From: an uncultured Lachnospiraceae bacterium
Lineage (GTDB): Bacteria > Bacillota > Clostridia > Lachnospirales > Lachnospiraceae
Direction: 5' to 3'
DNA length: 64,000 bases
NCBI GenBank assembly: GCA_947625135.1
Contig: CANQNE010000011.1
Span: 370-64,369, forward strand
Part shown: positions 247-21,965 of the stretch, one piece after another
Numbering within the stretch: position 1 is the stretch's first letter
Layout: each line of letters starts with the position of its first letter
Made by a program: the position numbers and the translations under genes
The notes under the pieces: model-generated
The model's input: the letters and a program-made list of their open reading frames with translations, nothing else
Told to the model about the DNA's origin: nothing
Database searches by the model: none

Positions 247-1980
247 GTGTGTAAATATGAGGCAGAGCAGAGGGAAAGTTATACCTTTGCCGAAAATACG
301 TTGACTGGGTGTTTTTTAAAGATTGCAAAAGTGAATCTTCTGACTGGCGAATATGAATTTGTAAAAAAAGAGCCGATCATGGATGAAAAGGATTATGAAC
401 AGATTACCAGTATATATTCTTATATCAAAAAGCAGGTGGATGACCACCTGGTTTTTTCTGAATATGCAGGAAATTATCTGAAATATTCCAACCCAGAATA
501 TGTGCAGGCAAGGATTTTTTCCGGAGGCAGGAGGATCACACAAAGCTATAAGAGAAAAACAGAAAACGGATATATGTGGGTGACGTTCAGCATTATGGCT
601 CCGGAGGGATGCAGTGCGGAAGATCCATGGGCAATTTTTGCATGGAGAGAGTCAGATACGGATACAACCACTATGGTAGATGCGCTTTCTACTTTATCTA
701 CTATTTATTATAAGATCCTGAAGATCAACCTGACAAAAGATACTTTTGAAGGAGTAAAGGTGGAGGAAGGCGAGCAGCAGTTCATGAGCAGGCTCAACAA
801 GATCAGCGACTGGTGGAGGGAATTTGCTGAATCCGGTCTGGTTTATGAGGATGACAGGATTTCTTACCAGAAATTTACGGAGATTGAAAGATTACGGCTG
901 CAGTTTCGCGAGAACCGGAGTATACAAAGCCTCCGTTACCGCAGAAAGAATGGGAAAACATATCGCTGGGTACAGATGGATCTGGTGCCCAGTATCGAAT
1001 ATACAGATGACAATCAGATTTTGATCCTCTATGTAAAGGACATTCATGAGGAGTATCTGTCTGAGCAGCAACGCCGGCAGAAGATGGCGGACGGATATAA
1101 TCGGGACGCGCTGACCTTTTTATATAACCGTCATAAATACAACGAGGATCTGGAAGAATTGAGCAGACAAAAAGCGTGTAAGGAGCTTACCTGCCTGTAT
1201 GTGGATGTAAACGGACTCCATGAGATGAACAACCATCTTGGGCACCAAAAAGGGGACGATATGCTCTGCAGTGTGGCGGACGCTCTGCGCAGGTTCTTCC
1301 CTGACGAGCGGGTGTATCGTATCGGCGGGGATGAGTTTGTGATGCTTTCCCGCAATCTTTCCAAAGAGAGTGTGGAAATGATGCTGACAGTGGTGCGCAG
1401 GCAGCTTGCAAGGGATCATTATGAGATCTCGGCAGGAATCGGCAGCGGCACGGAGCAGGCTACGGTCTATAAAATTATCGGAGCTGCGGAGCTTGCCATG
1501 CGCGCGGATAAAGAGCAGTATTATAAGCAGAATGACGGCGTACGTAAGCGGCGGGTTATGAATGAGGAATTGGAAAAAATACTGTCGGAAAAACAGGATG
1601 CAGAATATTTCCTGCAGGTGATCGCCAGCAAATTTGCCGGAGTGTATTTTGTAAATCTCCGGAAAGATACGCTCCGACATATTTACATACCTGAGTATTT
1701 TCTGGAATTTCTGGAAAAAGCGAATTTTAGTTACAGGCAGGGAATGGAGCTGTATATCCAAAAGCTTGTGAAAAAGATTTATTGTGATCGTTTTGAAGAG
1801 GTCATGAATTTTGAAAAACTGGAAGAGAAGCTGGAAGAGGATGAGGAGGTTCAGATCACCTATCAGAAAGTGAATGGGGCATGGATGAAGTTGCGTATTC
1901 TGGATCTTTCCGATCAGTTTAAGGAAAAGGGAGAAACTTTGTGGATCTTTACAGATGAGACAAAAGCAGAAAATCACTAA
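247..1980 (+). CDS. GGDEF-domain diguanylate cyclase with uncharacterised N- and C-terminal regions
   Basis: 577-aa ORF with a GTG start 10 nt after AAGGAG. Central RIGGDEFVML active-site motif, preceded by DALTFLYNRH and VDVNGLHEMNNHLGHQKGD, typical of the GGDEF fold. Confidence 0.85.
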   Translation: MCKYEAEQRESYTFAENTLTGCFLKIAKVNLLTGEYEFVKKEPIMDEKDYEQITSIYSYIKKQVDDHLVFSEYAGNYLKYSNPEYVQARIFSGGRRITQSYKRKTENGYMWVTFSIMAPEGCSAEDPWAIFAWRESDTDTTTMVDALSTLSTIYYKILKINLTKDTFEGVKVEEGEQQFMSRLNKISDWWREFAESGLVYEDDRISYQKFTEIERLRLQFRENRSIQSLRYRRKNGKTYRWVQMDLVPSIEYTDDNQILILYVKDIHEEYLSEQQRRQKMADGYNRDALTFLYNRHKYNEDLEELSRQKACKELTCLYVDVNGLHEMNNHLGHQKGDDMLCSVADALRRFFPDERVYRIGGDEFVMLSRNLSKESVEMMLTVVRRQLARDHYEISAGIGSGTEQATVYKIIGAAELAMRADKEQYYKQNDGVRKRRVMNEELEKILSEKQDAEYFLQVIASKFAGVYFVNLRKDTLRHIYIPEYFLEFLEKANFSYRQGMELYIQKLVKKIYCDRFEEVMNFEKLEEKLEEDEEVQITYQKVNGAWMKLRILDLSDQFKEKGETLWIFTDETKAENH

Positions 1981-2002
1981 GTGGTAAAGCGATCGGATTC
2001 AT

Positions 2003-2045
2003 AAAAGAGTTGATGTCAGCTGATGTCAGCTCTTTTATTTTTATA
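2003..2045 (+). terminator. Rho-independent terminator after the GGDEF gene
   Basis: Hairpin AAAAGAG...CTCTTTT enclosing a tandem GATGTCAGCT x2, followed by TTTTATTTTT about 20 nt after the stop codon. Confidence 0.6.
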
Positions 2046-2253
2046 ATGGCTATAGCGGAAGGAAGATTTTTTAAAAGAAACAATGGGAGAATGTGAATTG
2101 TATTTTGAATAGATATATTGTATAATGATCATATAATTTATAAAGAAATAAGTTCAGAATATCTTTAAAAAGTCAGGATATCTGCCGATCATGATACCAA
2201 AGTAAGAACCGACTAATATTACAGAGCCGGATATTAGAAGGGGGAGATAAATT

Positions 2254-4365
2254 GTGAAAAACAGAAAGATCTGGAAATCAGGAGCAGTTATTTTATCCCT
2301 TCTGCTTATATACAATCTGATCGCGTTTCCCGTATATGGAAATGAAATTCAGAAAGATCTGTTTACAGAGGAAGAACAGGCGTACATTGAAAAAGAAAGC
2401 GTTTTAAAGGTCGGATATGTCTGTGACCGCAGGCCGGTATCTTATCAGGGAGAAAACGGGGAACTGGCCGGTATTTCCAGACAGATATTTGACAAGATTT
2501 CCGAGATCAGCGGATTAAATTTTGAATATGTGGCGCTTCCACCCGGCGATATTACATACGAGTATCTTTTAAATGAGGGCTTTGATCTTGTCACCAGTGT
2601 GGAATATAATAAGGAAAATCAAAATGCCCGGGGAATTCTCATGAGCGATCCTTATCTGTCCAGCAGAAAAGTGATCGTAGCTAAAGAAGGATTAAATCTT
2701 CGGAAGGACGCACATTTTACAGTGGCGATCTCCACAGGCTCCCAGACGCTCAAAAAGGTACTTACTAATCAGTATCCGAATTTTAAACTGGTAAATTATC
2801 CTTCCATTGAGGATTGCCTGAAGGCGGTCAATCAGGGAGATGCAGATTTGCTGATTCAGAATCAGTATGTGGTAGAATATTGGCTGTACAAGCCGATCTA
2901 TAATGATCTGGTTGTAATCCCCATGCTGGAGATGCTGGATCAGCTTTGTTTTTCGGCGGTAGTTCCCTTAGAGATTACGAATGATGAAGATCCGGTGTGG
3001 CGGGAAAAGAAACAGCAGATTTCCATTATCAACAAAGCCATTGCGCAGATGTCGGAAGGAGAAGTGTCAGGGTATATCATCGGATCCACATTGGAAGATA
3101 TGTATAAATACTCCATTTCCGATTTTTTGTATCAGTACCGTTATACAGTGCTGATACTGGGAATTGCGTTTGTGGTGATCTGTATTCTGGTGTATGTGGC
3201 GATTCATTTCAGGATCCGTTCTATCAGGGATCGTTCCGATGCCAAGGCTAAGGGGGACTTTTTATCTGCCATGAGCCATGAGATCCGCACGCCCCTGAAC
3301 GGGCTGATCAGCCTGAATTATCTTATGTCCCAGAATGTGGACGACAAGGAAAAAATAAAAAATTATCTGCAGCAATCCTCCACAGTTTCCCAATATCTTC
3401 TGGCGCTGGTCAATAATGTGCTGGATATGTCAAAGCTGCAGGAGAACAAGATCGCGCTGGAGCATGAGCCGGTTGACCTTCAGCTTCTTCTGGAAACAGT
3501 GGAATCTGTGGAACGAGGAAGTATGGAGGAAAAAGAAATAAAGTTCCGATCAGATGTGTCGCTTTCTTATCCGCATATACTGGGGGATGAGGTCCGGATC
3601 CAGCAGATACTCATCAATTTGCTGGACAACGCCCGCAAGTATACGGAAGCAGGAGGCAGCGTGACGGTAACCGTGAGCCAGAGCTGGAATTTGGAGGGAG
3701 ATATTATTACCCGGATAGAGGTGGCGGATGACGGCTGCGGCATGAGCGAGGAGTTTCAGAAAAAGGTATTTGATCCTTTTGCACAGGAAAGAGATACGGT
3801 TTCCAAAGGAAATGAGGGAACCGGGCTGGGTCTTTCAATTTCCTCTATGCTGGCGGAACGGATGGGCGGAACCCTGAGTCTGGAAAGCAGACTGAAGGAG
3901 GGCAGCCGTTTTATCTTTACATTCCCGGCAAGACCGGCGAAGCCCGGAGGAGAGGATGCGGCTTCTGTGGAAACGCAGAAAAGCAGCACCCATGACAGAC
4001 CGCACATTCTGATCGCAGAGGATAATGAGCTGAATGGGGAAATTTTGACGGAGCTGCTGGAAGAGGAGGGGTTTCCTGTCCTTCTGGTGGAAAATGGCAA
4101 AAAGGCAGTGGAAGCCTTTGCCGCATCGGCGGTGGGAGAGTACGGCGTGATACTTATGGATCTGCTGATGCCGGAAATGAATGGATTTGAGGCGGCCAAA
4201 GCCATAAGAAGCCTTGATCGGGCGGATGCGGGCAGTGTCAAAATATTTGCCAGCACGGCCAATACCATGCAGAAAGACCGTGCAAAGGCTTTCGAGAGCG
4301 GAATGGATGATTTTATCGCAAAACCTATTGATATCGGCGACTTGATCAAGAAACTGCAGAATTGA
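2254..4365 (+). CDS. Hybrid sensor histidine kinase/response regulator with a periplasmic solute-binding-like sensor domain
   Basis: 703 aa, GTG start after GGGGGAG. N-terminal signal/TM, SBP_bac_3-like region (LKVGYVCDRRPVSY...), second TM, H-box FLSAMSHEIRTPLNG, G-box GTGLGLSIS, C-terminal receiver (ILIAEDNELNG...LMDLLMPEMNG). Confidence 0.9.
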   Translation: MKNRKIWKSGAVILSLLLIYNLIAFPVYGNEIQKDLFTEEEQAYIEKESVLKVGYVCDRRPVSYQGENGELAGISRQIFDKISEISGLNFEYVALPPGDITYEYLLNEGFDLVTSVEYNKENQNARGILMSDPYLSSRKVIVAKEGLNLRKDAHFTVAISTGSQTLKKVLTNQYPNFKLVNYPSIEDCLKAVNQGDADLLIQNQYVVEYWLYKPIYNDLVVIPMLEMLDQLCFSAVVPLEITNDEDPVWREKKQQISIINKAIAQMSEGEVSGYIIGSTLEDMYKYSISDFLYQYRYTVLILGIAFVVICILVYVAIHFRIRSIRDRSDAKAKGDFLSAMSHEIRTPLNGLISLNYLMSQNVDDKEKIKNYLQQSSTVSQYLLALVNNVLDMSKLQENKIALEHEPVDLQLLLETVESVERGSMEEKEIKFRSDVSLSYPHILGDEVRIQQILINLLDNARKYTEAGGSVTVTVSQSWNLEGDIITRIEVADDGCGMSEEFQKKVFDPFAQERDTVSKGNEGTGLGLSISSMLAERMGGTLSLESRLKEGSRFIFTFPARPAKPGGEDAASVETQKSSTHDRPHILIAEDNELNGEILTELLEEEGFPVLLVENGKKAVEAFAASAVGEYGVILMDLLMPEMNGFEAAKAIRSLDRADAGSVKIFASTANTMQKDRAKAFESGMDDFIAKPIDIGDLIKKLQN

Positions 4366-7442: not shown

Positions 7443-7676
7443 ATAAGCGAAAAGGTGTATTCATACGACGGGAGAAGTATACGCATTACCCAAATTACAC
7501 CGGCGGAGGCAATAGTACAAGGAAATAGCAGGACAGACTCATGGAAAATGATTTCGAGCTGACCTTGCGGACTGCGTGAGGAGGTGTGAAATGAAAAAGC
7601 TGAATCGGGCGAGACCACCAAATGGAAAGCGCCCGTAAATCTGTAACAAAAAAACAATAGAAACGGAGGACATGCA

Positions 7677-10600
7677 ATGAGTATCCTGAAACGGATCTTA
7701 GTTGTACTTCTGTCATTGTGTATGGCAGTTTCTCCTGTCTATGTGGCTTCAGCAGGAACAGTGGAAGCTGCGGAGGGAGCGCATACACATAAATATGACA
7801 AGTCAACGGTAAAAGAGGCTAGTTGTAAGGAACCGGGAATTGACAAGTACGAGTGCGAATGTGGTGATTCCTATTATTCCATCGTTACTGTACCCCATGA
7901 TTACGACACAAATGGGGACGGCAAAGAGGATATCAATGATGAGGGCACCTCAATTACAAAGCAGCCCACTTGTACGGATAAGGGTCAGATTACCTATACC
8001 TGTAAGGTGTGTGGAGCCAAAAAGGTAGATGAACTGCCTGCAAACGGACATACACCCGGGACCCCTGAATTGATTCCCCATACCTGCACCGAGAATGGCA
8101 AGGCTGTGATCAAGTGTACTGTTTGTCATGCAGTTCTTGAGACAACGGATCTGGGCGACGCTGATAAGGCGCCCGGAACAGATCATGTGCCCGGCCCTGT
8201 GCAGAAGGAAAATGAAAAGGCAGTGACCTGTAAGAAAGACGGCTCTTATGACAATGTGATCTACTGTACAGTCTGCAAGGCGGAGATCAGCCGCGAGACA
8301 GTGACAGTGAAATCAACAGGTCAGGAGCATGTTTACAGTGAAGAAGACCTTCAGGTTGTAAAGCCTGCCAGCTGTACCGAAAACGGTATTTCCAGCTACA
8401 CCTGTAAAGAGTGTAAGGAAGTCGGCTATGTAGTGATCAATGCTTCTCACAGCTGGAAGCTGAAAGAGAAAGCGGAAGACGACTACAAGGAAAGGGTAGA
8501 AGCGACCTGCGGCAAGGATGGCAAAGGTACATACCAGTGCGAGGTCTGCGGCGAGACAAAGGTTGACGTGATTCCGGCAACCGGACAGCATACTATTGTA
8601 GAAGAGTATAAGGATCCTACCTGTACAGAAGCGCAAATGTATGAGAAGAAATGTTCTGTCTGCGGGAAGGTGCTGGAGTCAAAGCCGGTAGAAGGCAGCA
8701 AACCCAATGGTCACAAGGAAGCATCAAGATACGTGGCGCCTACCTGTACCAAGAACGGTCAGAATGAGACTTACTGTACAGTCTGCAACAAAGTGTTGAA
8801 GACGGAGGATCTTGGCGAGCTGGATCCTTCCAAGGGCGGCCATAAGCTGGGCGACTGGACAGCCGACAAGACGGATAAGAAATGGAAGGACGTTACCTGT
8901 AAAGAGAACGGCCTCAAGGTAGAAGTACAGATCTGTTCTGTATGTAAGGAAAAAGTAAACAGAAGAGAAACTGTTGTAGAGTCCACAGGAACAGAGCATA
9001 AATACCCTGCAGTTGGCAAGGGAACAGTGGTTACCCCTGCAAGCTGTGAAAAGAACGGTATTGAGCGTGTGACCTGTGAAATCTGTAAGGCATCCACCTA
9101 CCGTGTTGTTCCCGCAAGCCATAACTGGGTAGACAAAGGCTGGGTAGCAGGCAAGGAAGCTACCTGCGCAAAGGACGGCGAAAAGAATTTCGAGTGTGCC
9201 GTCTGCAAAAAGACAAAGACCGAAAAGGTTTCCAAGTCTACAGTGAAGCATACGCCCGGTCAAGAAGAGTATCAGGAGCCTACCTGTACAGAGCGCGGCA
9301 AGATGGTGGTTAAGTGTACAGTCTGCAAGGCTGTGATCTCCTCCAAGGATGTAACAGGCAAGGAAGCGGATCCGAAGGGACATAAGGAAGCAGTAAGATT
9401 TGTAGAAGCGACCTGTGAGAAGAACGGTCAGAGCGAGACTTACTGTACAGTCTGCAACAAAGTGCTGAAGACGGAGGATCTTGGCGAGCTGGCACCTTCC
9501 AAGGGCGGCCACAAGCTGGGCGACTGGACAGCCGACAAGACAGATAAGAAATGGAAGGACGTTACCTGTAAAGAGAACGGCCTCAAAGTAGAGGTACAGA
9601 TCTGTTCTGTATGTAAGGAAAAAGTAAACAGAAGAGAAACAGTTGTGGAATCCACAGGAACAGAGCATAAATACCCTGCAGTTGGCAAGGGAACAGAGGT
9701 TACCCCTGCAACCTGCGACAAGAATGGTATCGAGCGTGTGACCTGTGAAATCTGTAAGGCGTCCACCTACCGTGTTGTTCCCGCAAGCCATAACTGGGTA
9801 GACAAAGGCTGGGTAGCAGGCAAGGAAGCTACCTGTGCAAAGGACGGCGAAAAGAATTTCGAGTGTGCCGTCTGCAAAAAGACAAAGACTGAAAAGGTTT
9901 CCAAGTCTACAGTGAAGCATACGCCCGGTCAGGAAGAGTATCAGGAGCCTACCTGTACAGAGCGCGGCAAGATGGTGGTTAAGTGTACAGTCTGCAAGGC
10001 TGTGATCTCCTCCAAGGATGTAACAGGCAAGGAAGCGGATCCGAAGGGACATAAGGAAGCAGTAAGATTTGTAGAAGCGACCTGTGAGAAGAACGGTCAG
10101 AGCGAGACTTACTGTACAGTCTGCAACAAAGTGCTGAAGACGGAGGATCTTGGCGAGCTGGCGCCTTCTAAAGGCGGCCACAAGCTGGGCGACTGGACAG
10201 CTGACAAGACAGATAAGAAGTGGAAGGACGTTACCTGTAAAGAGAACGGCCTCAAGGTAGAAGTACAGATCTGTTCTGTATGTAAGGAAAAAGTAAACAG
10301 AAGAGAAACTGTTGTAGAATCCACAGGAACAGAGCATAAATACCCTGCAGTTGGCAAGGGAACAGTGGTTATGGCTGCAACCTGCGACAAGAACGGTATC
10401 GAGCGTGTGACCTGCGAGTTCTGTAAGATTTCCACCTATCGTGTTGTTCCCGCAGGCCATAACTGGGAGACAAGAGGTTATGTGGAAGGCAAAGTGCCTA
10501 CCTGTGCAAAGGATGGCGAGGAGAAGTTCGAGTGTACAGTCTGCGGAAAGACGAAGACTGAGAAGGTCTCCAAGTCTACGATCAAGCATCAGTATGAGAC

Positions 10601-11978
10601 AGTTGGCGTAGTTGCGACCTGTGAGCATCCTGATCTGATTCAGGAAAAATGTTCTGTCTGCGGCAATGTAAAGAGCAGCAAAGAAGTAGCAGGAAGCAAG
10701 CCGCTCCCGCACACACCGGAAACAAAGTATGTTCCGGCTACCTGTACAGAGAACGGAAAGAATGTGACTACCTGTACAGTCTGCAAAAAGGTACTGGAAT
10801 CTGACGATCTCGGAGATCTGGATCCTGCTACCGGCGGACATGAGTACGAGGAAAAGGTAGTTGCACCCAACTGTAAGGAGAAAGGCTATACGCTGCATAC
10901 CTGTAAGAAGTGCGGCGACAGCTACAAGACTGATGAAACCGAGCCTAACGGCCAGCATGTTGTGAAGCTTTCAGATCCGAAGGATTATCTGAAGCAGCCT
11001 ACCTGTACTTCAACGGGTATCTCAAAGGCAACCTGTGCTGTCTGCAAAGCGGATCTTGGTTATGCGGCTGTGCCTATGACCCCTCATGTATTTGACGGAT
11101 CAAAGGCAAAGATCACGAAAGAGCCTACCTGTACCGAACCCGGTATCATGGAAAGCCCTTGTGCTAACGGCTGCGGCGCAAAAGCGACAGAGGAACTGGC
11201 GGCTCTTGGTCATAAGTATGGCGAAGAGAAGGTTTCTGAGGACGGCAAGACCGTATATCAGGAATGTTCCGTATGCGGCGACATCAAAGTGATCTGGAGT
11301 GAAGATCCCTGCGCAGGAAAGCATACGCCCGGGGAACCCCAGAAGGAAAAAGAAGTAGCGGCAACCTGCGACAAGGCAGGTTCTTACGAAGAAGTTGTAT
11401 ATTGTACAGTATGCAAGAAAGAAATTTCCAGAACTCCCAAGACGGTGGATGCTCTCGGACATAAGCCCGGCGCTGCAGTGAAGGAAAAAGAGGTCGCTGC
11501 AACCTGTGAAACAGCAGGTTCCTACGAGGAAGTAATTACCTGTACAGTGTGCAAGAAAGAAATTTCCAGAACTCCCAAGACAGTGGCCGCACTTGGACAT
11601 AAGCCCGGCGCTGCAGTAAAGGAGAACGAAGTAGCAGCAACCTGCGACAAGGCAGGCTCTTACGAAGAGGTTACCTATTGTACAGTCTGCAAGAAGGAAA
11701 CCTCCAGAGCAAAGAAGACCGTGCCCGCAGGCAACCACACTCCGGGAGCTGCAGTAAAGGAAAATGAAGTGGCTGCAACCTGTGATAAAGAAGGTTCTTA
11801 TGAAGAGGTTACCTACTGTACAGTCTGCAAGAAGGAAATTTCCAGAGTGAAGAAGACAGTAGAAAAGACCGGTCATACATTCGGTGATTATGAGTATGAG
11901 TACAATGAAGAAACAAACAGATGGGATGTATATCGTACTTGTACCGTATGCGGAACCAGAGAAAAAATTGACTATTGA
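7677..11978 (+). CDS. Secreted 1,433-aa protein composed of about 32 tandem Cys3-His modules (function unknown)
   Basis: SD GGAGGA 6 nt upstream. Signal peptide MSILKRILVVLLSLCMAVSPVYVASA. Reiterated pattern (A/P/V)(T/S)C-x3-G-x5-7-C-x2-C-x10-20-H. No enzyme motif and no LPXTG. Confidence 0.85.
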   Translation: MSILKRILVVLLSLCMAVSPVYVASAGTVEAAEGAHTHKYDKSTVKEASCKEPGIDKYECECGDSYYSIVTVPHDYDTNGDGKEDINDEGTSITKQPTCTDKGQITYTCKVCGAKKVDELPANGHTPGTPELIPHTCTENGKAVIKCTVCHAVLETTDLGDADKAPGTDHVPGPVQKENEKAVTCKKDGSYDNVIYCTVCKAEISRETVTVKSTGQEHVYSEEDLQVVKPASCTENGISSYTCKECKEVGYVVINASHSWKLKEKAEDDYKERVEATCGKDGKGTYQCEVCGETKVDVIPATGQHTIVEEYKDPTCTEAQMYEKKCSVCGKVLESKPVEGSKPNGHKEASRYVAPTCTKNGQNETYCTVCNKVLKTEDLGELDPSKGGHKLGDWTADKTDKKWKDVTCKENGLKVEVQICSVCKEKVNRRETVVESTGTEHKYPAVGKGTVVTPASCEKNGIERVTCEICKASTYRVVPASHNWVDKGWVAGKEATCAKDGEKNFECAVCKKTKTEKVSKSTVKHTPGQEEYQEPTCTERGKMVVKCTVCKAVISSKDVTGKEADPKGHKEAVRFVEATCEKNGQSETYCTVCNKVLKTEDLGELAPSKGGHKLGDWTADKTDKKWKDVTCKENGLKVEVQICSVCKEKVNRRETVVESTGTEHKYPAVGKGTEVTPATCDKNGIERVTCEICKASTYRVVPASHNWVDKGWVAGKEATCAKDGEKNFECAVCKKTKTEKVSKSTVKHTPGQEEYQEPTCTERGKMVVKCTVCKAVISSKDVTGKEADPKGHKEAVRFVEATCEKNGQSETYCTVCNKVLKTEDLGELAPSKGGHKLGDWTADKTDKKWKDVTCKENGLKVEVQICSVCKEKVNRRETVVESTGTEHKYPAVGKGTVVMAATCDKNGIERVTCEFCKISTYRVVPAGHNWETRGYVEGKVPTCAKDGEEKFECTVCGKTKTEKVSKSTIKHQYETVGVVATCEHPDLIQEKCSVCGNVKSSKEVAGSKPLPHTPETKYVPATCTENGKNVTTCTVCKKVLESDDLGDLDPATGGHEYEEKVVAPNCKEKGYTLHTCKKCGDSYKTDETEPNGQHVVKLSDPKDYLKQPTCTSTGISKATCAVCKADLGYAAVPMTPHVFDGSKAKITKEPTCTEPGIMESPCANGCGAKATEELAALGHKYGEEKVSEDGKTVYQECSVCGDIKVIWSEDPCAGKHTPGEPQKEKEVAATCDKAGSYEEVVYCTVCKKEISRTPKTVDALGHKPGAAVKEKEVAATCETAGSYEEVITCTVCKKEISRTPKTVAALGHKPGAAVKENEVAATCDKAGSYEEVTYCTVCKKETSRAKKTVPAGNHTPGAAVKENEVAATCDKEGSYEEVTYCTVCKKEISRVKKTVEKTGHTFGDYEYEYNEETNRWDVYRTCTVCGTREKIDY
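8708..10714 (+). repeat. Three tandem 669-bp (223-aa) in-frame repeats inside the giant CDS
   Basis: Identical landmarks at 8771, 9440 and 10109 (TTACTGTACAGTCTGCAACAAAGTG). The string starting at 9361 recurs at 10030. The high-identity tract runs about 8760-10465. Confidence 0.9.
11319..11875 (+). repeat. Four tandem 138-bp (46-aa) repeats at the 3' end of the giant CDS
   Basis: GGACATAAGCCCGGCGCTGCAGT recurs at 11457 and 11595. Protein unit: HKPGAAVKEKEVAATCxxAGSYEEVxxCTVCKKEISRTPKTVxALG. Confidence 0.85.
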
Positions 11979-12064
11979 TCTGCAGAGCAGGCGATTGATC
12001 TGACCGATCATAGTTGATCAGCTGCCGGTCTGCGATTGGCAGACCGGCAGAATTCAGAAAGGAT

Positions 12065-12664
12065 ATGGCAATGAAAAAAGTTATTGTAGGAATACTTACG
12101 CTGGTCATGGTACTGTCAGCAATGCTCTCACTGGCAGGATGTCAGGACAAAAAAACTGATGTTCAGAACGACACGCCGGTCAGTGCCACGGAAGAATCTC
12201 AGACTGCCGGAGAAAAAGAAACAGAGACAATGATCAACAGTAATCTGAATCCGGATGAGATCACACAGAGCGAACAGGAATCCATTGATCTGCTTGCGTC
12301 TGATATGACTGTTGTGACGGATGAAAATTTCGGAGAGATAGTCAACGAGGCGATTTATCATACAAGCGAGTTTAGTGGCAAAGTGTACCAGCTTGAAGGT
12401 GTTTACACTACAAACACCGAGGGAGGGGTTCCTTACCTTTATCGTTTTCTGGTAAACGGAGAGGAGGAAACCTTCTGTGGATTGCCATTGGTTTATTTGA
12501 ATAAACAGTTCAATGATGGCGATTGGATCAAGGTGACAGGAATTTTCAACGCTCATGAGATCAATGGTGCTTCCATCACAGCGTTGGAGATTGTGGCGGC
12601 ACAGCGGCTTCCGCAGGCGGGACAGGAGAAGATCCCCTGGTCCGGCGCCGCTCACGATCATTAA
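12065..12664 (+). CDS. Lipoprotein of unknown function
   Basis: Start moved to the ATG at 12065 because the ORF-track start lies inside a 12-bp hairpin. Signal peptide plus lipobox LSLAGC, an acidic linker, then a domain of about 110 aa. Confidence 0.7.
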   Translation: MAMKKVIVGILTLVMVLSAMLSLAGCQDKKTDVQNDTPVSATEESQTAGEKETETMINSNLNPDEITQSEQESIDLLASDMTVVTDENFGEIVNEAIYHTSEFSGKVYQLEGVYTTNTEGGVPYLYRFLVNGEEETFCGLPLVYLNKQFNDGDWIKVTGIFNAHEINGASITALEIVAAQRLPQAGQEKIPWSGAAHDH

Positions 12665-12675
12665 GGAGGGATTAG

Positions 12676-13731
12676 ATGAATTTGAAATACGGAAAAAAGC
12701 GTTTTCTCAGTGCGCTGCTGATTTGCCTTTTCGTTGTCAGCTGCTTTTCCTTTACGGCAATGGCTGCTGAGGATCATGAACACAATTTCGAGAGTACGGT
12801 GGTTCATGAGGCAACCTGTACAAGAGTGGGAATCGGCTTGAATCGGTGTACGATCTGCGGATATGAGCAGCATTATGAGATTCCGATGATCGATCACGAT
12901 TATACAAGATCAGTGGTACATGAAGCTACCTGTGTAGAAAACGGTATTGCATTGCTTACCTGTAAGGTTTGCGGTGCAGAAGCCCATGAGGCGATTCCGG
13001 CAACAGGCCATACACCGGTAACGGACGCTGCTGTGGCAGCTGCCTGTGAAACGGCAGGCCTGACGGAAGGCAGTCATTGTTCTGTGTGCGGCGCGGTACT
13101 TACTTCTCAGGAGACTGTACCGGCAAAGGGTCATAATCTGACCGCTGTAGCGGCAAAGGATCCTACAGAAACAGAAGCAGGCAACAAGGCATATTACGTA
13201 TGCGCTGACTGCGGCAAGCTGTTTGAGGATCAGGCCGGGACAACAGAGACTACTTTGGAGCAGGTAACGATACCTGCCACAGGTCCTGTGACACCCAGCG
13301 CAGCGCCCAGTGAGGAACCCAGTGCAGCGCCCAGTGAGAAACCCAGCGCAGCGCCCAGTGAGAAACCCAGCGCAGCGCCCAGCGAGGAACCCAGTGCAGA
13401 ACCCAGCACGGAGCCCAGCGCAGCGCCCAGTACGGAGCCCAGTGCAGAACCCAGCACAGAGCCCAGTGCAGCGCCCAGCGAGAAACCCAGTGCAGAACCC
13501 ACTGCAGAACCTGAAACGAACCCCAGTGCAAGACCTGATGCCAATAGCGGCAGCGCCACAGGCGGCACAAATGTAAACGGAGGCGGATCTGCTGCGGTAA
13601 AGACGTCTTCAAACGGAAATGTTGCAGCGCCTAAGACAGTAGATGGTTATACGATCGTTACATATCTGACGATGATCCTTCTTTGCTGTGCAGGTGTTGG
13701 TTTTCTGGCAAAAAAAGGAATCAGGGAATAA
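12676..13731 (+). CDS. Membrane-anchored surface protein with four Cys3-His modules, a Pro/Ser/Ala/Glu linker and a C-terminal TM anchor
   Basis: SD AAGGAGGG. Signal peptide ending AMA. Modules ATCTRVG..CTIC..H, ATCVENG..CKVC..GH, AACETAG..CSVC..GH, then CADC. The C-terminal hydrophobic segment is followed by KKGIRE. Confidence 0.8.
   Translation: MNLKYGKKRFLSALLICLFVVSCFSFTAMAAEDHEHNFESTVVHEATCTRVGIGLNRCTICGYEQHYEIPMIDHDYTRSVVHEATCVENGIALLTCKVCGAEAHEAIPATGHTPVTDAAVAAACETAGLTEGSHCSVCGAVLTSQETVPAKGHNLTAVAAKDPTETEAGNKAYYVCADCGKLFEDQAGTTETTLEQVTIPATGPVTPSAAPSEEPSAAPSEKPSAAPSEKPSAAPSEEPSAEPSTEPSAAPSTEPSAEPSTEPSAAPSEKPSAEPTAEPETNPSARPDANSGSATGGTNVNGGGSAAVKTSSNGNVAAPKTVDGYTIVTYLTMILLCCAGVGFLAKKGIRE
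13294..13530 (+). repeat. 24-bp (8-aa) tandem repeat encoding a (E/K)PSA(A/E)PS(E/T) linker
   Basis: CCCAGTGCAGCGCCCAGTGAGAAA-like units repeated about 10 times. This tract creates the spurious ORFs seen in other frames. Confidence 0.85.
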
Positions 13732-13779
13732 TTGATTCTTCGGATTCCAAATGAAAGTCAATTTTATAAGTTAATAGAA

Positions 13780-13818
13780 AGAGTGGGAATACGAAAAAGT
13801 ATACCCACTCTTTTTTAT
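13780..13818 (+). terminator. Rho-independent terminator ending the Cys-repeat operon
   Basis: AGAGTGGGAATAC / GTATACCCACTCT stem (one mismatch) followed by TTTTTTATTT. Confidence 0.7.
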
Positions 13819-13923
13819 TTGTGCTATAATGTGCGAAAGAAGAACCAGGTGTCAGAGATTATTGGAGATCATAAGAAGAAAAAGGGATTCACATGTTGAC
13901 GGAGGGAGAGAAAGTACAGGAGC

Positions 13924-18602: not shown

Positions 18603-19595
18603 ATGCAAGAGAAAAAAGAAGAATTGCTTCGGATATTTGCACCTTCCGTAAAGAGAATACTGGAGTATGCGCAAATAGACTGGAAAAAGCTGCAGGAGAT
18701 TCGGCTGCGGATTCTTTCCCCGCTGCTGATCATTTATGACGGAAAGGAATATGGATTAAGAAGCGACGGCAGCCTTCTGACGAAAAGCGGGGAAGCGTAC
18801 CGGGTGACAGAGCAGGATCTCCGGGAGACGCTGCAGATTGTATCTTCTTATTCCTTATACGCCTATGAGGAGGAGATCAAACAGGGATTTTTGACTGTGA
18901 GCGGCGGCCACAGGATCGGACTGGCGGGAAAGACCATACTGGAGAAGGGGCTCATCAAAGGGATGCGTTATATTTCCTGCATCAATGTAAGAGCCGCTCA
19001 TCAGATCATTGGCTGCGCGGATCAGGTGATGCCTTATGTGACGGAGAGAGAAAACAGCTGCAGCTGTCTGATCATTTCCCCGCCGGGCTGCGGTAAGACA
19101 ACCCTTCTGCGGGATATGATCAGGCAGTTTTCAGACGGAACAGGGGGCAGATCGGGAAAAGCCGTAGGCGTTGTGGACGAGCGGTCGGAGATCGGCGGCT
19201 GCTACCGGGGGATCCCTCAGAACGATGTAGGTATGCGGACGGATATTCTGGACTGCTGTCCAAAAGCAGAAGGGATGATGATGCTGATCCGCTCTATGGC
19301 TCCGGATATCGTTGCGGTAGACGAAATCGGCGACGAGCGGGATGCGGACGCCATCGAAGCGGTGATACACTGCGGCTGTAAGCTGCTGGCTACCGTACAT
19401 GGGAGTTCTCTGGAGGATATCAGCCGGAAACCCCTGCTGGAACGGCTGACGAAGGAGCGGCTGTTTGACCGGTACATTTTGCTTCAGAACAGGCAGGAGC
19501 AGAGGGGAGAGGGACTGTTGGAGGAAAAGGATCATGTCAGTTCCAGGCTGAAGCTGATTACTGACAGCGCCGGCAATGTGCTGTTTCGCAGATAA
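18603..19595 (+). CDS. spoIIIAA: Stage III sporulation protein AA (ATPase)
   Basis: 330 aa with Walker A SPPGCGKTTLLRD and Walker B-like VAVDEIG. First gene of an eight-gene spoIIIA-type operon. Confidence 0.9.
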   Translation: MQEKKEELLRIFAPSVKRILEYAQIDWKKLQEIRLRILSPLLIIYDGKEYGLRSDGSLLTKSGEAYRVTEQDLRETLQIVSSYSLYAYEEEIKQGFLTVSGGHRIGLAGKTILEKGLIKGMRYISCINVRAAHQIIGCADQVMPYVTERENSCSCLIISPPGCGKTTLLRDMIRQFSDGTGGRSGKAVGVVDERSEIGGCYRGIPQNDVGMRTDILDCCPKAEGMMMLIRSMAPDIVAVDEIGDERDADAIEAVIHCGCKLLATVHGSSLEDISRKPLLERLTKERLFDRYILLQNRQEQRGEGLLEEKDHVSSRLKLITDSAGNVLFRR

Positions 19596-19625
19596 GGACA
19601 ATGCGCAGAAAAAGGAGGAAAAGGG

Positions 19626-20144
19626 ATGCTGAAGCTCGCAGGCGCGGCGACAGTCTGTATATCCGCCGCCGTATTTGGAATCTGTCTTGCGGGGGAATTG
19701 AAGGAAAAGGTAAGGCTATTAGAGGAATTTCGGCGTTGCTTTTTTATGATCCGGGGAGAGATCCGTTTTTCCAACGCTACTTTATCAGAAGCATTTATGT
19801 CGATTGAGAACCGGGGCGCAGAGCCTTTGCCCCGGTTTTTCGGAGAGATGGGAAAGCTGCTGGAAGAAAATCCGGAACGGGGGCTTGGAACGATCTGGCG
19901 GGAACAGACGGCGGAAATATTTGGAAAGAGTGTGTTTTCCGGAGAAGAACTGCAGTGGATCTCCGGACTTGGAGAGAGATTGGGTTATCTGGATCGGGAA
20001 ACGCAGCTGGGCACGCTGGAAATGATTCTGGAGCAGCTGGAGGCAAAGGAAGCGGAGGCAGACAGGATCTATGCAGACAAGGGCAAGGTGTATCGCTGCG
20101 TGGGAGCCATGAGCGGGATTTTGGTCGTTCTGCTATTACTATAA
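19626..20144 (+). CDS. spoIIIAB: Stage III sporulation protein AB
   Basis: 172 aa with N- and C-terminal TM segments. Position and size fit spoIIIAB. Confidence 0.8.
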   Translation: MLKLAGAATVCISAAVFGICLAGELKEKVRLLEEFRRCFFMIRGEIRFSNATLSEAFMSIENRGAEPLPRFFGEMGKLLEENPERGLGTIWREQTAEIFGKSVFSGEELQWISGLGERLGYLDRETQLGTLEMILEQLEAKEAEADRIYADKGKVYRCVGAMSGILVVLLLL

Positions 20145-20157
20145 CAGGAGGTCGTTC

Positions 20158-20352
20158 ATGAGTGTATCAATCATTTTTCGGATCGCGGCGGTAGGGATTC
20201 TGGTGTCTGTGCTGGGACAGGTCTTAAAGCACAGCGGTCGGGACGATCAGGCATTTCTGGCAAGTCTGGCGGGACTTTTGCTGGTACTGTTCTGGATATT
20301 GCCTTACATATATGATCTGTTCGAGACTATTCAGCGCATGTTTTCCCTGTGA
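20158..20352 (+). CDS. spoIIIAC: Stage III sporulation protein AC
   Basis: 64-aa two-TM protein with SD AGGAGG. Operon position fits. Confidence 0.8.
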   Translation: MSVSIIFRIAAVGILVSVLGQVLKHSGRDDQAFLASLAGLLLVLFWILPYIYDLFETIQRMFSL

Positions 20353-20370
20353 GCAAAGAGGAGGAAAATC

Positions 20371-20754
20371 ATGACTATCATCAAGATCGCAGTGATCGGC
20401 ATTGTGGGTGCGATTCTGGCTGCGCAGCTGAAAGAATTTAAATCCGGCCACAGCGTGCTGATGGCACTTGCCGTCGGGCTGATCATTTCCGCATGGACGG
20501 TGAGCAGGCTGGACACAGTGCTGGATATGGTGGACCGGGTACAGAGTCTTGTGTCCGTCAACAGCGCTTATATCCTGACTCTGCTGAAAATGCTCGGCAT
20601 CACCTATATTTCCGACTTCGGCGCAGGATTGTGCAAGGATGCGGGACACAGCGTCATCGCCCACCAGATTGAGATTTTTGGTAAGGTTTCTATTCTGGCA
20701 GTTAGTATGCCGGTGCTGACGGCGTTGATCGAGACGATTGAGAGGTTGCTATGA
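20371..20754 (+). CDS. spoIIIAD: Stage III sporulation protein AD
   Basis: 127-aa polytopic membrane protein with SD GAGGAGG. Operon position fits. Confidence 0.8.
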   Translation: MTIIKIAVIGIVGAILAAQLKEFKSGHSVLMALAVGLIISAWTVSRLDTVLDMVDRVQSLVSVNSAYILTLLKMLGITYISDFGAGLCKDAGHSVIAHQIEIFGKVSILAVSMPVLTALIETIERLL

Positions 20755-21965
20755 CAGATAAAAAGGCGTTTTTTTGGGCGGCTGTATTGCTGGGTGTGTT
20801 GTGTTTGTTCTGTGTGCCTGCCCTGGCCGGCGAAAATGCTGGGGAGCAGCCAGAGACAGGTACGCAAGATCCGGAGGAAAGTCAGTGGCAGCGGCAGCTG
20901 GACCAGAAGTGGGACAGCGCGCTGGAGGACACGGATTTTGAGGAACTGGAGCAGGCCATGGAGGAAGCGCTGGAAACGGATCAGATTTCTTTTGCGGAAC
21001 TGGCGAAAGGGCTGGCCTCCGGAAAGATCAAACCGGATATGGAGCTGGTGCGGGAGCTTGTGAACAAAGGTGTTTTCGGAAATATGAAGGGCGCGAAGGG
21101 GATTCTGACCCAGATTCTGGCACTGTCTATTTTATCCGCTTTCTTTTCCATGATCGCATCGATATTCGGAAACGGACAAGTCTCTGACATCAGCTTCTAT
21201 GTGGTGTTTCTCATATTGCTGGCGCTTTTGATGAGTTCCTTTGCAAGGGCGTCAAAAATCGCGTCGGAAACCATTGAGAAGCTGCTGTTATTTGTAAAGG
21301 TGATGATGCCGGTCTACATGGTGATCGTGGCGGCGGCCGGGGGCGGCACTACAGCGGTGGTGTTTTATGAGTTTTTCCTGTTTTTGGCATTTGTTGTCAA
21401 CTGGCTGATCCTGCGGGTGCTGATACCGATGATCCATGTATATGTGGTGATGGGGGTAGTCAACCATCTTTCGAAGGAGGATCTGTTTTCAAAAGCGGCG
21501 GATCTGATCCGCACAGCGGTAAAGTGGGCGTTAAAGACCATTGTGGGACTGGTGATCGGCTTTCAGCTGCTGCAAAGTCTTATCGCGCCTTTTATCGACA
21601 GCTTCCGGTCCGCCTCCCTGCACCGCACGCTGATGTCCATACCGGGCGTGGGCAACGCCATCAACGGGATCACGGAAATGGCGATCGGGGCGGGAATCCT
21701 TATCAAAAACGGTATGGGCAGCGCGGCGCTGATCGTGATCGTGCTGATCTGCCTGACGCCGGTTCTGATGCTGGGCGTATATGTATTTTTGTTCCAGCTG
21801 TCCAGAGCGCTGATCCAGCCGGTGGCGGATAAGCGGATCCAGAAATGTATCGGCTATGTGCGGGAAGGGACTGCGCTTCTTATGCGCACGCTGATGATCA
21901 CCTGCTTTTTGTTTTTGCTGACTGTTGCGGTACTGACAGCGTCTACAAACGGCGGGATCAGTTAG
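20751..21965 (+). CDS. spoIIIAE: Stage III sporulation protein AE
   Basis: 404 aa: signal peptide, acidic region, then multiple TM segments. Overlaps spoIIIAD by 4 nt. Confidence 0.85.
   Translation: MTDKKAFFWAAVLLGVLCLFCVPALAGENAGEQPETGTQDPEESQWQRQLDQKWDSALEDTDFEELEQAMEEALETDQISFAELAKGLASGKIKPDMELVRELVNKGVFGNMKGAKGILTQILALSILSAFFSMIASIFGNGQVSDISFYVVFLILLALLMSSFARASKIASETIEKLLLFVKVMMPVYMVIVAAAGGGTTAVVFYEFFLFLAFVVNWLILRVLIPMIHVYVVMGVVNHLSKEDLFSKAADLIRTAVKWALKTIVGLVIGFQLLQSLIAPFIDSFRSASLHRTLMSIPGVGNAINGITEMAIGAGILIKNGMGSAALIVIVLICLTPVLMLGVYVFLFQLSRALIQPVADKRIQKCIGYVREGTALLMRTLMITCFLFLLTVAVLTASTNGGIS

What the first reader, a model, noticed from the sequence alone, without database searches (positions are those of the whole stretch)
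7677..11978. 1,433-aa secreted protein built almost entirely from about 32 tandem Cys3-His modules
After a clear signal peptide, nearly the whole protein repeats one module of 35-50 aa. The module reads (A/P/V)(T/S)-C-x3-G-x5-7-C-x2-C-x10-20-(G)H; examples are PTCTDKGQITYTCKVCGAKKVDELPANGH and ATCDKAGSYEEVVYCTVCKKEISRTPKTVDALGH. I count 30 strict CxxC knuckles plus 2 variants. Each is preceded by a single Cys 9-12 residues upstream and followed by a conserved His.

Three Cys plus one His per unit is the composition of a tetrahedral zinc site, like a half zinc-ribbon or treble-clef. An odd Cys count also argues against simple intramodule disulfides. I see no catalytic motif, wall-anchor, SLH, LRR or Ig-type signature, and I do not recognise the module as a named domain. 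An extracellular array of about 30 potential metal sites in an anaerobe could act as an adhesin or fibre, a metal buffer, or a scaffold.
Basis: partly seen in the sequence, partly recalled or inferred. Interest (0 to 1): 0.75.

Follow-up and report, generated by a model that had tools for sequence, protein, structure and literature searches.

The report
Metal-stapled beta-sheet rod surface protein
This gene encodes a secreted protein made of 32 small flat beta-sheet modules, probably joined end to end by a three-cysteine, one-histidine metal site at each junction into a long rod; the building block is common in gut Clostridia, has no database name, and has been noted only once before, in an IgA protease.

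Summary
ORF 7677-11978 (+) encodes 1,433 aa: a signal peptide, then 32 Cys/His modules (96 Cys, 30 CxxC plus one CxC and one Cx3C). This is far above shuffled controls.

The module matches no curated Pfam or NCBIfam model and no solved structure. It is nevertheless widespread: 7,644 clusters at 50% identity, in gut and rumen Clostridia. It is often fused to cohesin, dockerin, SLH, CWB2, Flg_new, GH43 or LRR domains.

AlphaFold models (pLDDT 96 and 92) give each module as a three-stranded sheet, with C1 and the CxxC at opposite ends. Statistics over about 5,000 modules show that C1 and the following His are kept only when another module's ligand pair follows. The site is therefore most likely inter-modular: C1(i) + linker His + CxxC(i+1). 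That gives 31 junction sites plus an N-terminal HxH/CxC site, and accounts for all 95 Cys of the mature protein.

The same principle was proposed in 2025 for CTD2/CTD4 of the Thomasclavelia ramosa IgA protease, from an AlphaFold model plus SAXS. I file this as an extreme, stalk-only member of that barely characterised kind. The metal identity and the biological role are untested.

The parts
7665..7669 (+). Ribosome-binding site GGAGG, 7 nt before the ATG
   Evidence: Read directly from the sequence.
7677..11978 (+). Gene for the 1,433-aa module protein (stop codon included)
   Evidence: ORF list. An identical protein, P0001, is in NCBI on a 64.7-kb contig. A 46%-identical syntenic orthologue exists in a Lachnospiraceae MAG.
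7677..7754 (+). Signal peptide, aa 1-26 (MSILKRILVVLLSLCMAVSPVYVASA|G). It holds the only Cys (C15) outside the modules
   Evidence: Sequence features read directly. No predictor was run. LSLC is not a lipobox.
7782..7865 (+). N-terminal end site: H36-x-H38 plus the knuckle C60-x-C62 of module 1. Proposed His2Cys2 site replacing the missing upstream C1
   Evidence: HxH occurs in 27% of true first modules against 1% of internal ones. It is present in all four N-terminal modules of this cassette and its orthologue.
7782..11975 (+). Array of 32 modules (aa 36-1433), each His - b1 - C1 loop - b2 - CxxC - b3. Proposed 31 inter-module Cys3His sites
   Evidence: Module map. AlphaFold models of modules 28-30 (pLDDT 96) and modules 10-14 (pLDDT 91.7). 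Ligand co-loss statistics.
8703..10844 (+). Three full copies and one partial copy of a 669-nt (223-aa, five-module) repeat. Copies 1 and 2 are 97% identical in DNA
11211..11324 (+). Variant module 27 (aa 1179-1216). It has no canonical C1; a relocated Cys sits four residues before the next His (C1212-x3-H1216)
   Evidence: Such relocated Cys occur in 24% of internal modules lacking C1, against 0.1% otherwise.
11322..11860 (+). Four 46-aa modules (138-nt period) of the HxPGxxVxENxxxATCxxxGSYxEVxYCTVC subtype
   Evidence: This subtype was used for alignment A1.
11874..11975 (+). C-terminal cap module 32 (aa 1400-1433). It has the upstream His and a CxxC, but no C1 and no downstream His
   Evidence: The same cap is present in orthologue P0002. 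Terminal modules in general lose C1 (89%) and His (79%).
12022..12050 (+). Perfect 12-bp hairpin between gene 1 and gene 2, with no U-tract
   Evidence: Folding gives -27.6 kcal/mol, z = -7.1. Sequence. Its function was not tested.
12065..12664 (+). Gene 2: lipoprotein (LAGC lipobox) with a DUF1980_C-like domain and a C-terminal ...AAHDH tail
   Evidence: Pfam PF21537 scores 23.7 bits (cut-off 25.9) and TIGR03943 has E = 2e-8, both below cut-off. A 57%-identical orthologue sits in the same position in L081 and ends ...PSHEH.
12676..13731 (+). Gene 3: 351-aa paralogue. Signal peptide, HEH, three modules, a cap module (C1->E, GH->GP), a Pro/Ser/Glu-rich linker, and a C-terminal hydrophobic helix with a basic tail
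   Evidence: (PT repeat, E = 2.5e-10). RBS GGAGG at 12665-12669.
13777..13824 (+). Intrinsic terminator closing the three-gene operon
   Evidence: Folding gives -21.1 kcal/mol, z = -6.6, followed by UUUUUUAUUU.

Best explanation
The gene encodes a Sec-secreted protein of about 150 kDa that is essentially all stalk. It has 32 small three-stranded, single-layer beta-sheet modules placed end to end.

Each junction between neighbours is most likely clamped by one tetrahedral metal site. By composition this is presumably structural Zn2+. Its ligands come from two modules:
- C1, in the b1-b2 loop at the far end of module i;
- the His of the short linker;
- the CxxC knuckle in the b2-b3 turn of module i+1.

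This gives 31 Cys3His junction sites. The first module's knuckle is completed by an N-terminal HxH. The last module is a cap that has lost C1 and the trailing His because nothing follows it.

The thin sheets lack a hydrophobic core, so the metal staples would be what makes the chain a continuous rod. I estimate the rod at roughly 100 nm from strand lengths (an inference, not a measurement).

By analogy with the domains it is fused to in relatives, and with the IgA-protease tail, the module acts as a spacer or 'periscope' stalk element of the cell surface. Here it is used alone as a long fibre. It is co-expressed from one operon with a lipoprotein and a short, C-terminally anchored paralogue.

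Shown here: the repeat anatomy, conservation, fold topology (as a model), and the dependence of ligand retention on the next module. Inferred: the identity of the metal, rigidity, length, surface retention and biological role.
For: (1) Anatomy. There are 32 modules, and all 95 Cys of the mature protein are accounted for: 64 knuckle Cys, 30 C1 and the relocated C1212.

(2) Models. AlphaFold2 gives mean pLDDT 96.0 for modules 28-30 and 91.7 for modules 10-14. Every module reads b1 - C1 loop - b2 (6-9 residues) - CxxC - b3, and the His lies about 2-6 residues before b1 of the next module. C1 and its own CxxC are therefore separated by a whole strand.

(3) Co-loss in 120 homologues. C1 is kept in 94% of modules followed by another CxxC, against 53% otherwise (p = 3e-62). 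There is no dependence on a preceding module (p = 0.39). Among 'last' modules, C1 and the downstream His vary together: 89 lack both, 134 keep both, 36 are discordant. Of the 134 that keep both, 120 are followed by a variant ligand pair. Of the 89 that lack both, 85 have nothing after them.

(4) Replication in 122 independent representatives. C1 is kept in 92% against 11% (OR 88, p = 1.6e-92). His is kept in 96% against 21%.

(5) Compensation. Internal modules lacking C1 carry a Cys within 7 residues before the boundary His in 24% of cases, against 0.1% otherwise (OR 217, p = 1.6e-64). Another 22% carry an extra His there. First modules carry HxH in 27% of cases against 1%.

(6) Context. The module is fused to wall anchors and displayed domains (SLH, CWB2, dockerin, cohesin, Flg_new, Big_2, LRR, GH43).

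(7) Structural neighbours. No solved structure matches significantly (no hit at E <= 0.001). The only high-probability Foldseek neighbours of the three-module model are SasG/Aap G5-E rods.

(8) Independent precedent. CTD2/CTD4 of the T. ramosa IgA protease are described as separate beta-sheets linked by predicted Cys/His zinc pockets, without a hydrophobic core, and extended as a rod by SAXS (PMC12415215).

(9) Operon. RBSs, a 12-nt gap before gene 3, a terminator after gene 3, and the cassette conserved in a 46%-identical relative.
Against: No coordinates were available. No Cys-Cys or Cys-His distance was measured, so the inter-module site rests on secondary-structure topology plus sequence statistics.

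No metal has been measured for any member. The IgA-protease paper reports no metal analysis of CTD2.

Some first modules have no obvious fourth ligand. About half of the internal modules lacking C1 show no obvious substitute.

pTM values are modest (0.52-0.61), as expected for rods, and they say nothing about rigidity.

The protein has no recognisable head domain and no wall anchor, so a 'stalk' role has nothing obvious to display or to hold on to.

Sequence homology to the IgA-protease CTD2/CTD4 could not be tested, because the Q9AES2 sequence was not retrievable with these tools.
Confidence: 0.66

Rival explanations
1. One reading: each module is an autonomous mini zinc finger (half zinc-ribbon or treble-clef) whose own C1, CxxC and following His bind one metal. 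The protein would then be beads on a string.
For: The linear motif C-x9-11-CxxC-x13-17-H recurs in about 98% of units. Cys3His is a classic structural zinc set. Several relatives accumulate weak partial zf-BED knuckle matches.
Against: In two confident models, C1 and the CxxC flank a 6-9-residue beta-strand, which is at least about 20 A if straight. Terminal modules keep the CxxC but lose C1 (89%) and His (79%) together. Lost C1 residues are replaced by a Cys or His next to the downstream His, not next to the knuckle. First modules still need an upstream His. zf-BED gives no hit for the window protein at E <= 1.
Confidence: 0.1
2. No metal is involved. The clustered Cys form disulfides or other thiol cross-links, within or between modules, that stabilise an extracellular protein.
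For: The protein is exported. Three Cys would lie close together at each junction. Extracellular Cys-rich repeats in other organisms are usually disulfide-bonded (general knowledge).
Against: There is an odd number of Cys per site. The His is near-invariant, is lost together with C1, and can be substituted by Cys and vice versa. That is ligand behaviour, not disulfide behaviour. The hosts are strictly anaerobic gut and rumen Clostridia, where oxidative folding is not expected (general knowledge). The IgA-protease authors also read the sites as fully coordinated zinc pockets.
Confidence: 0.07
3. The sites bind a redox-active metal (Fe, rubredoxin-like, or Cu), and the rod is an extracellular electron conduit or a metal store or buffer.
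For: There would be about 32 thiolate-rich sites per chain. CxxC knuckles also occur in rubredoxins; weak rubredoxin-type Pfam matches appear on the paralogue at E = 0.02, far below cut-off.
Against: Successive sites are one whole module apart, about 3 nm by strand length. That is too far for electron hopping between mononuclear centres (general knowledge: about 1.4 nm or less). There are no haem CxxCH motifs, since the residue after the CxxC is G, K or N. No redox or metal-transport genes are in the operon or next to it. Buried structural sites make poor exchangeable stores.
Confidence: 0.05
4. The module array is itself the functional surface, for example a multivalent adhesin for a host or plant polymer or for other cells, rather than a passive spacer. 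The metal sites would only be scaffolding.
For: The protein has no other domain to display. About half of the top relatives are also module-only. The N-terminal eight modules are divergent while the central ones are near-identical. SasG/Aap-type rods do mediate cell-cell contacts (PMC12415215).
Against: No binding motif or conserved surface patch was identified. Apart from the ligands, a Gly and a few strand positions, the sequence is poorly conserved, as expected of a spacer. This is compatible with the best explanation rather than exclusive of it.
Confidence: 0.12

Closest known systems
CTD2 and CTD4 of the Thomasclavelia (Clostridium) ramosa IgA protease, UniProt Q9AES2: 'metal-associated periscope domains' (PNAS 2025, PMC12415215)
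   Same: Several separate single beta-sheets are placed end to end and linked by predicted all-Cys/His zinc pockets. There is no hydrophobic core and no structural homologue in the PDB. The shape is an extended rod (SAXS of CTD2, residues 880-1008, about three sheets). They are flanked by InlB-B-repeat-like domains, as the module is in my hits (Flg_new). They occur in an exported protein of a gut Bacillota member.
   Different: There, two short blocks of about three sheets act as spacers for a protease with a cell anchor. Here, 32 modules in a row make up the whole protein, which has no enzyme and no anchor. Sequence homology was not tested because Q9AES2 was not retrievable. The paper gives no ligand assignment in its main text, no family survey and no metal measurement for CTD2.
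SasG / Aap G5-E repeat rods of staphylococci (PDB 4wve, 8deo, 4fup)
   Same: They are elongated single-layer three-stranded beta-sheet modules joined head to tail into a surface rod. Near-identical DNA repeats allow length variation. They are the top high-probability Foldseek neighbours of the three-module model (prob 0.96-0.97).
   Different: The structural match is weak (E about 0.01, TM about 0.3, identity about 10%). G5-E rods have no Cys. Their Zn2+ is bound on the surface by His/Asp/Glu and mediates dimerisation between molecules, not stapling within the chain (as summarised in PMC12415215).
Classical zinc ribbons, zinc knuckles and the BED finger (Pfam zf-BED PF02892, Zn_ribbon families)
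   Same: They share a CxxC knuckle at a beta-turn and Cys/His tetrahedral ligand sets. Some relatives accumulate weak zf-BED score over profile positions 13-38.
   Different: Those are autonomous, mostly intracellular, nucleic-acid- or protein-binding domains whose four ligands come from one domain. The window protein has no zf-BED hit at E <= 1, and only sub-threshold ribbon hits appear on the paralogue. No single stretch passes in the relatives either.

Membership tests
Metal-associated periscope domain (T. ramosa IgA protease CTD2/CTD4 type) | Built of separate single beta-sheets arranged end to end, without a beta-sandwich or hydrophobic core | tested here: met
   AlphaFold2 models of 3 and 5 modules have pLDDT 96.0 and 91.7. 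Each module is three strands in a meander and there are no helices of 4 or more residues. Absence of a core is inferred from the single-sheet topology, not measured.
Metal-associated periscope domain (T. ramosa IgA protease CTD2/CTD4 type) | Cys/His-only pockets that link one sheet to the next | tested here: met
   The test was indirect. Topology places C1(i), the linker His and CxxC(i+1) at one junction. Ligand co-loss and compensation statistics give p values from 1e-62 to 1e-92. No inter-atomic distances could be measured.
Metal-associated periscope domain (T. ramosa IgA protease CTD2/CTD4 type) | No structural homologue among solved structures | tested here: met
   Foldseek against the PDB gave no hit at E <= 0.001 for the 3-module model. 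It gave one meaningless beta-propeller hit (TM 0.11) for the 5-module model. The PDB sequence search returned only spurious kinesin light chain matches.
Metal-associated periscope domain (T. ramosa IgA protease CTD2/CTD4 type) | Sequence homology to Q9AES2 residues 880-1008 / CTD4 | not testable with these tools
   The Q9AES2 sequence is not in the PDB entries (which cover 329-876 only).
Metal-associated periscope domain (T. ramosa IgA protease CTD2/CTD4 type) | Extended rod in solution; bound zinc | not testable with these tools
   This needs SAXS and metal analysis. Even for CTD2, only SAXS is reported, with no metal analysis.
Periscope proteins (variable-length surface stalk proteins) | Tandem, highly DNA-identical repeats of a stalk domain | tested here: met
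   A 669-nt unit is repeated about 3 times, with copies 1 and 2 at 97% DNA identity. A 138-nt unit is repeated about 4 times.
Periscope proteins (variable-length surface stalk proteins) | Cell-wall or membrane anchor at one end and a functional domain at the other | tested here: not met
   No LPXTG motif, SLH, CWB2, TM helix or any head domain is present in the 1,433-aa protein. Only the co-transcribed 351-aa paralogue has a C-terminal anchor-like helix.
zf-BED / zinc-ribbon superfamilies | A profile match above the curated cut-off, with four ligands from one autonomous domain | tested here: not met
   The window protein has no zf-BED or ribbon hit at E <= 1. In relatives, only summed sub-threshold partial matches occur, with zero individually significant stretches. 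Ligand topology is inter-modular.
SasG/Aap G5-E repeats | A G5 (PF07501) or E-repeat sequence match, or significant structural superposition | tested here: not met
   There is no Pfam G5 hit. Foldseek gives E about 0.01-0.1 and TM about 0.3. The resemblance is in architecture only.

The most novel reading that the evidence does not exclude
The junction sites may make the whole rod metal-conditional. With about one Zn per 45 residues holding otherwise coreless sheets together, stalk extension and stiffness on gut Clostridia could switch with zinc availability, for example under host nutritional immunity. The widespread module (more than 7,600 clusters, no Pfam model) would then be a new class of extracellular, interdigitated 'zinc-zipper' fold in which every metal site is shared between two domains. 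A module-only 32-mer like this one would be a secreted metal-dependent fibre or matrix component rather than a mere spacer.
Probability: 0.2. Interest if true: 0.8.

Novelty: new member of a known kind. Interest (0 to 1): 0.58.

Why it matters
If the model holds, this module is one of the commonest unnamed building blocks of the surface proteins of gut and rumen Clostridia. These include cellulosome components, S-layer-anchored enzymes and adhesins.

It would solve the problem of making a stiff extracellular stalk in an anaerobe without disulfides or hydrophobic cores, by sharing one Cys3His metal site between each pair of neighbouring sheets.

This protein is the cleanest natural test object: 32 modules, nothing else, and regular 46-aa repeats. 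A 3-5-module fragment could establish metal identity, stoichiometry and mechanics for the whole family. The alignments here could seed a Pfam entry that would annotate thousands of 'hypothetical' proteins.

The finding also gives simple sequence rules (HxH or CxH starts, C1-less caps) for finding true array ends.

Tried and rejected
- Pfam and NCBIfam scans of the protein and its two operon partners gave no hit above cut-off for the module. DUF5107, LupA and similar are sub-threshold noise.
- The PDB sequence search returned only kinesin light chain, an artefact of repeat periodicity.
- Foldseek against the PDB with both models gave nothing significant. The beta-propeller hits at TM 0.1 are local meander matches.
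- A look-up of the exact protein in the contig index found no record, so the source record's name was not obtained. The organism is inferred only as a spore-forming Clostridia member close to a Lachnospiraceae MAG.
- I first tried to settle the His register from array ends with a loose definition of 'last module'. That set was contaminated by modules followed by variant knuckles, so I replaced it with the ligand-pair test.
- I looked for model coordinates in the sandbox to measure S-S and S-N distances. None are exposed.
- I tested whether the DUF1980_C-like lipoprotein is a general partner of module proteins. tblastn against 81 loci found it only in the one close orthologous locus. Flanks were short (3 kb), so wider linkage is neither shown nor excluded.
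- The promoter and terminator consensus scan was uninformative, with counts near shuffle expectation. The operon terminator was found by eye and confirmed by folding.
- Literature searches for other descriptions found only the T. ramosa IgA protease paper, plus one irrelevant DUF1980 mention.
- The multihaem (CxxCH) reading was rejected, because the residue after the CxxC is never His except in one module (C147-x2-C150-H151).
- The long antisense ORFs (for example 8724-10958, 744 aa) were rejected as by-products of the repeat's codon composition.

Full report
**1. The observation**

A GGAGG lies 7 nt upstream of the start. The N-terminus (MSILKRILVVLLSLCMAVSPVYVASA|G) reads as a Sec signal peptide and is not a lipobox. 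This is read from the sequence; no predictor was run.

The protein has 96 Cys (6.7%) and 37 His. There are 30 CxxC plus one CxC (C60/C62) and one Cx3C (C1162/C1166), giving 32 knuckles. Residue shuffles give 6.4 CxxC on average (max 18) and 0.9 Cys triplets (max 5), against 30 and 28 observed.

The 223-aa supermodule is real. It spans aa 353-972, and copies 1 and 2 are 98.7% identical in protein and 97% in DNA. The DNA period is 669 nt. The C-terminal part holds four 46-aa repeats with a 138-nt period.

Modules 27 and 32 lack the upstream Cys. Every module, including the first, is also preceded by a His, so the register 'C..CxxC..H' is arbitrary.

**2. Not a named domain, but very common**

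No Pfam-A or NCBIfam model reaches its cut-off. The PDB sequence search gives only repeat-periodicity noise.

The word-indexed search of 5.8 billion proteins scored more than 4,629 relatives. The exhaustive profile search of 1.84 billion cluster representatives found 7,644 at E <= 1e-3 and 2,338 at E <= 1e-30.

The species-representative genome scan hit at least 594 stretches. Nearly all of the 80 listed are gut or rumen Clostridia: Lachnospiraceae, Oscillospiraceae, Ruminococcaceae, Acutalibacteraceae and Christensenellaceae.

In relatives the module is fused to cohesin, dockerin, SLH, CWB2, Flg_new (InlB B-repeat), Big_2, LRR, GH43, F5/8-C and transglutaminase domains. About half of the top hits have no other domain. 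A summed but never individually significant zf-BED score in some relatives reflects the CxxC knuckle only.

Across 120 relatives there are 2,538 Cys triplets. The C1-C2 gaps are almost exclusively 9, 10 or 11 residues, and about 98% of linkers hold a His.

**3. Fold**

AlphaFold2 with custom alignments gave very confident models: mean pLDDT 96.0 for modules 28-30 and 91.7 for the five different module subtypes of the supermodule.

Every module has the same order: His, b1, a loop carrying C1, b2 (6-9 residues, ending at C2), the C2xxC3 turn, then b3. The next His lies about 2-6 residues before the next b1.

C1 and the CxxC of one module therefore sit at opposite ends of b2. That is at least about 20 A if the strand is straight, which is too far for one mononuclear site. 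By the meander topology, C1(i) lies next to the end of b3(i) and the linker His. That His lies next to the start of b1(i+1), and so next to the knuckle of module i+1.

Coordinates are not exposed by the tool. I therefore tested this topology-derived hypothesis on sequences.

**4. Sequence tests of an inter-module site, C1(i) + His + CxxC(i+1)**

(a) Co-loss in 120 relatives (2,758 knuckles). C1 is kept in 94% of modules followed by another CxxC, but in 53% of those that are not (p = 3e-62). It does not depend on a preceding module (p = 0.39). Among 'last' modules, C1 and the downstream His go together: 89 lack both, 134 keep both, 36 are discordant.

(b) What follows the 'last' modules. Of the 134 that keep both, 120 are followed by a variant ligand pair (CxC, Cx4C, Cx5H and others). 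Of the 89 lacking both, 85 have nothing after them or end the protein.

(c) Replication in 122 independent representatives. With 'any ligand pair downstream' as the criterion, C1 is kept in 92% against 11% (OR 88, p = 1.6e-92). His is kept in 96% against 21%.

(d) Compensation. Internal modules without canonical C1 carry a Cys within 7 residues before the boundary His in 24% of cases, against 0.1% otherwise (OR 217, p = 1.6e-64). Another 22% carry a second His there. The replacement therefore appears at the His end of the sheet, not near the module's own knuckle.

(e) First modules. True first modules always keep the upstream His (15 of 15) and carry HxH in 27% of cases, against 1% of internal modules.

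The window protein fits all of these:
- H36-x-H38 precedes module 1.
- Module 27 has the relocated C1212-x3-H1216.
- Module 32 is a cap without C1 or a trailing His.
- The 96 Cys equal C15 (signal peptide) + 64 knuckle Cys + 30 C1 + C1212.
- That gives 31 Cys3His junctions plus one His2Cys2 start site, with no Cys left over.

The 351-aa paralogue and both orthologues in the related MAG show the same start (HEH, HQH, HEHH) and the same caps.

**5. Prior description**

A full-text search led to the PNAS 2025 paper on the Thomasclavelia ramosa IgA protease (PMC12415215). [quoted passage not shown] The paper describes several separate beta-sheets linked by predicted Cys/His zinc pockets, with no hydrophobic core and no PDBeFold homologue. 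Isolated CTD2 is a fully extended rod by SAXS. The paper compares these domains with SasG/Aap G5 domains, and CTD1/CTD3 are InlB-B-repeat-like.

This matches what I derived independently. It also matches my Foldseek result that the only high-probability neighbours are SasG/Aap rods, at a weak TM of about 0.3.

The paper's main text reports no metal analysis of CTD2 and contains no family survey. I could not retrieve Q9AES2, so homology is likely but untested.

**6. Genomic setting**

The gene is first in a three-gene operon:
- Gene 1 (7677-11978).
- A stable hairpin without a U-tract (12022-12050; -27.6 kcal/mol, z = -7.1).
- A lipoprotein with a sub-threshold DUF1980_C-like domain and a C-terminal HDH tail (12065-12664).
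- After a 12-nt gap containing GGAGG, a 351-aa paralogue (12676-13731). It has three modules, a cap, a Pro/Ser/Glu-rich linker, and a C-terminal hydrophobic helix with a basic tail.
- An intrinsic terminator (13777-13824; -21.1 kcal/mol, z = -6.6).

A divergent XRE regulator lies upstream. The whole cassette, including the upstream ABC transporter and hybrid kinase, is conserved in a rabbit-gut Lachnospiraceae MAG whose large protein is 46% identical. Downstream genes (spoIIIA and others) show a spore-forming Clostridia chromosome. The lipoprotein was not found next to module proteins in the other 79 loci, but their flanks were short.

**7. Mechanism and rivals**

Best supported (0.66): a secreted, coreless beta-sheet rod whose 31 junctions are each stapled by a shared Cys3His site, presumably structural Zn. 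It is a stalk-only member of the metal-associated periscope type. Its length is of order 100 nm, inferred from strand lengths.

Rivals:
It is contradicted by the topology and the co-loss data.
- Disulfides without metal (0.07). It is contradicted by His behaving as an exchangeable ligand and by the anaerobic hosts.
- A redox wire or metal store (0.05). The sites are about 3 nm apart and there is no supporting gene context.
- The array itself as an adhesin (0.12). This is compatible with the structural model and is untested.

**8. Verdict**

I file it as a new and extreme member of a recently noticed, still experimentally unproven kind. Interest is moderate to high, because the family is large and unnamed, and because this protein is an ideal test object.

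Noticed in passing
window 12065-12664 (+): A lipoprotein (LAGC lipobox) sits between the two module genes. It has a sub-threshold DUF1980_C / TIGR03943-like C-terminal domain. Its C-terminal tail ends in HxH in both this genome (AAHDH) and the orthologue (PSHEH). That is the same kind of His pair that starts the module arrays. Its role is unknown: a metal-handling helper or a tether is possible.
   Followed up: partly
window 12022-12050 (+): A perfect 12-bp GC-rich hairpin (-27.6 kcal/mol) lies 44 nt after the stop of the big gene. It has no U-tract and comes just before the lipoprotein RBS. It could set the expression ratio within the operon or stabilise the upstream mRNA.
   Followed up: partly
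window 12676-13731 (+), especially 13293-13511 and the last about 105 nt: The 351-aa paralogue carries a 24-nt-period Pro/Ser/Glu/Ala repeat (PSAAPSEE-type, 8.5 copies). It ends ...AAPKTVDGYTIVTYLTMILLCCAGVGFLAKKGIRE. The related protein P0018 has IPKTGDVDGYW at the same place. This may therefore be a degenerate sortase sorting signal (PKTG-type) rather than a simple membrane anchor.
   Followed up: no
window 7905-7940 (+), aa 77-88 of the big protein: The unusually long His-to-C1 linker of module 2 contains DTNGDGKEDIND, which resembles a DxNxDG calcium-binding loop (dockerin or EF-hand type). Similar DGDGICD loops occur near array ends in relatives (P0003, P0013).
   Followed up: no
window 8724-10958 (-) and 11100-12011 (-): Long antisense ORFs (744 and 303 aa), together with three repeated 108-aa ORFs, lie inside the module gene. 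They follow the 669-nt repeat and look like by-products of its codon composition, not genes.
   Followed up: no
relatives P0027, P0035, P0039, P0041, P0059, P0060: A recurrent variant junction motif C-E-H (for example ...LGCEHET) supplies two ligands from the linker when the preceding module has no C1. In P0060 it directly follows the signal peptide (AAEECEHDY). It could serve as a sequence rule for array starts.
   Followed up: partly
window 18603-21965 (+); also 247-4365 (+): A spoIIIA operon (SpoIIIAA, SpoIIIAE) lies downstream. A GGDEF protein and a hybrid histidine kinase with an SBP_bac_3 sensor lie upstream, next to an amino-acid ABC transporter. The kinase-transporter-XRE-module cassette order is conserved in the related MAG.
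   Followed up: partly
window 60001-62000: A local G+C dip to 0.40 against about 0.50 elsewhere. This may be foreign or AT-rich intergenic DNA.
   Followed up: no
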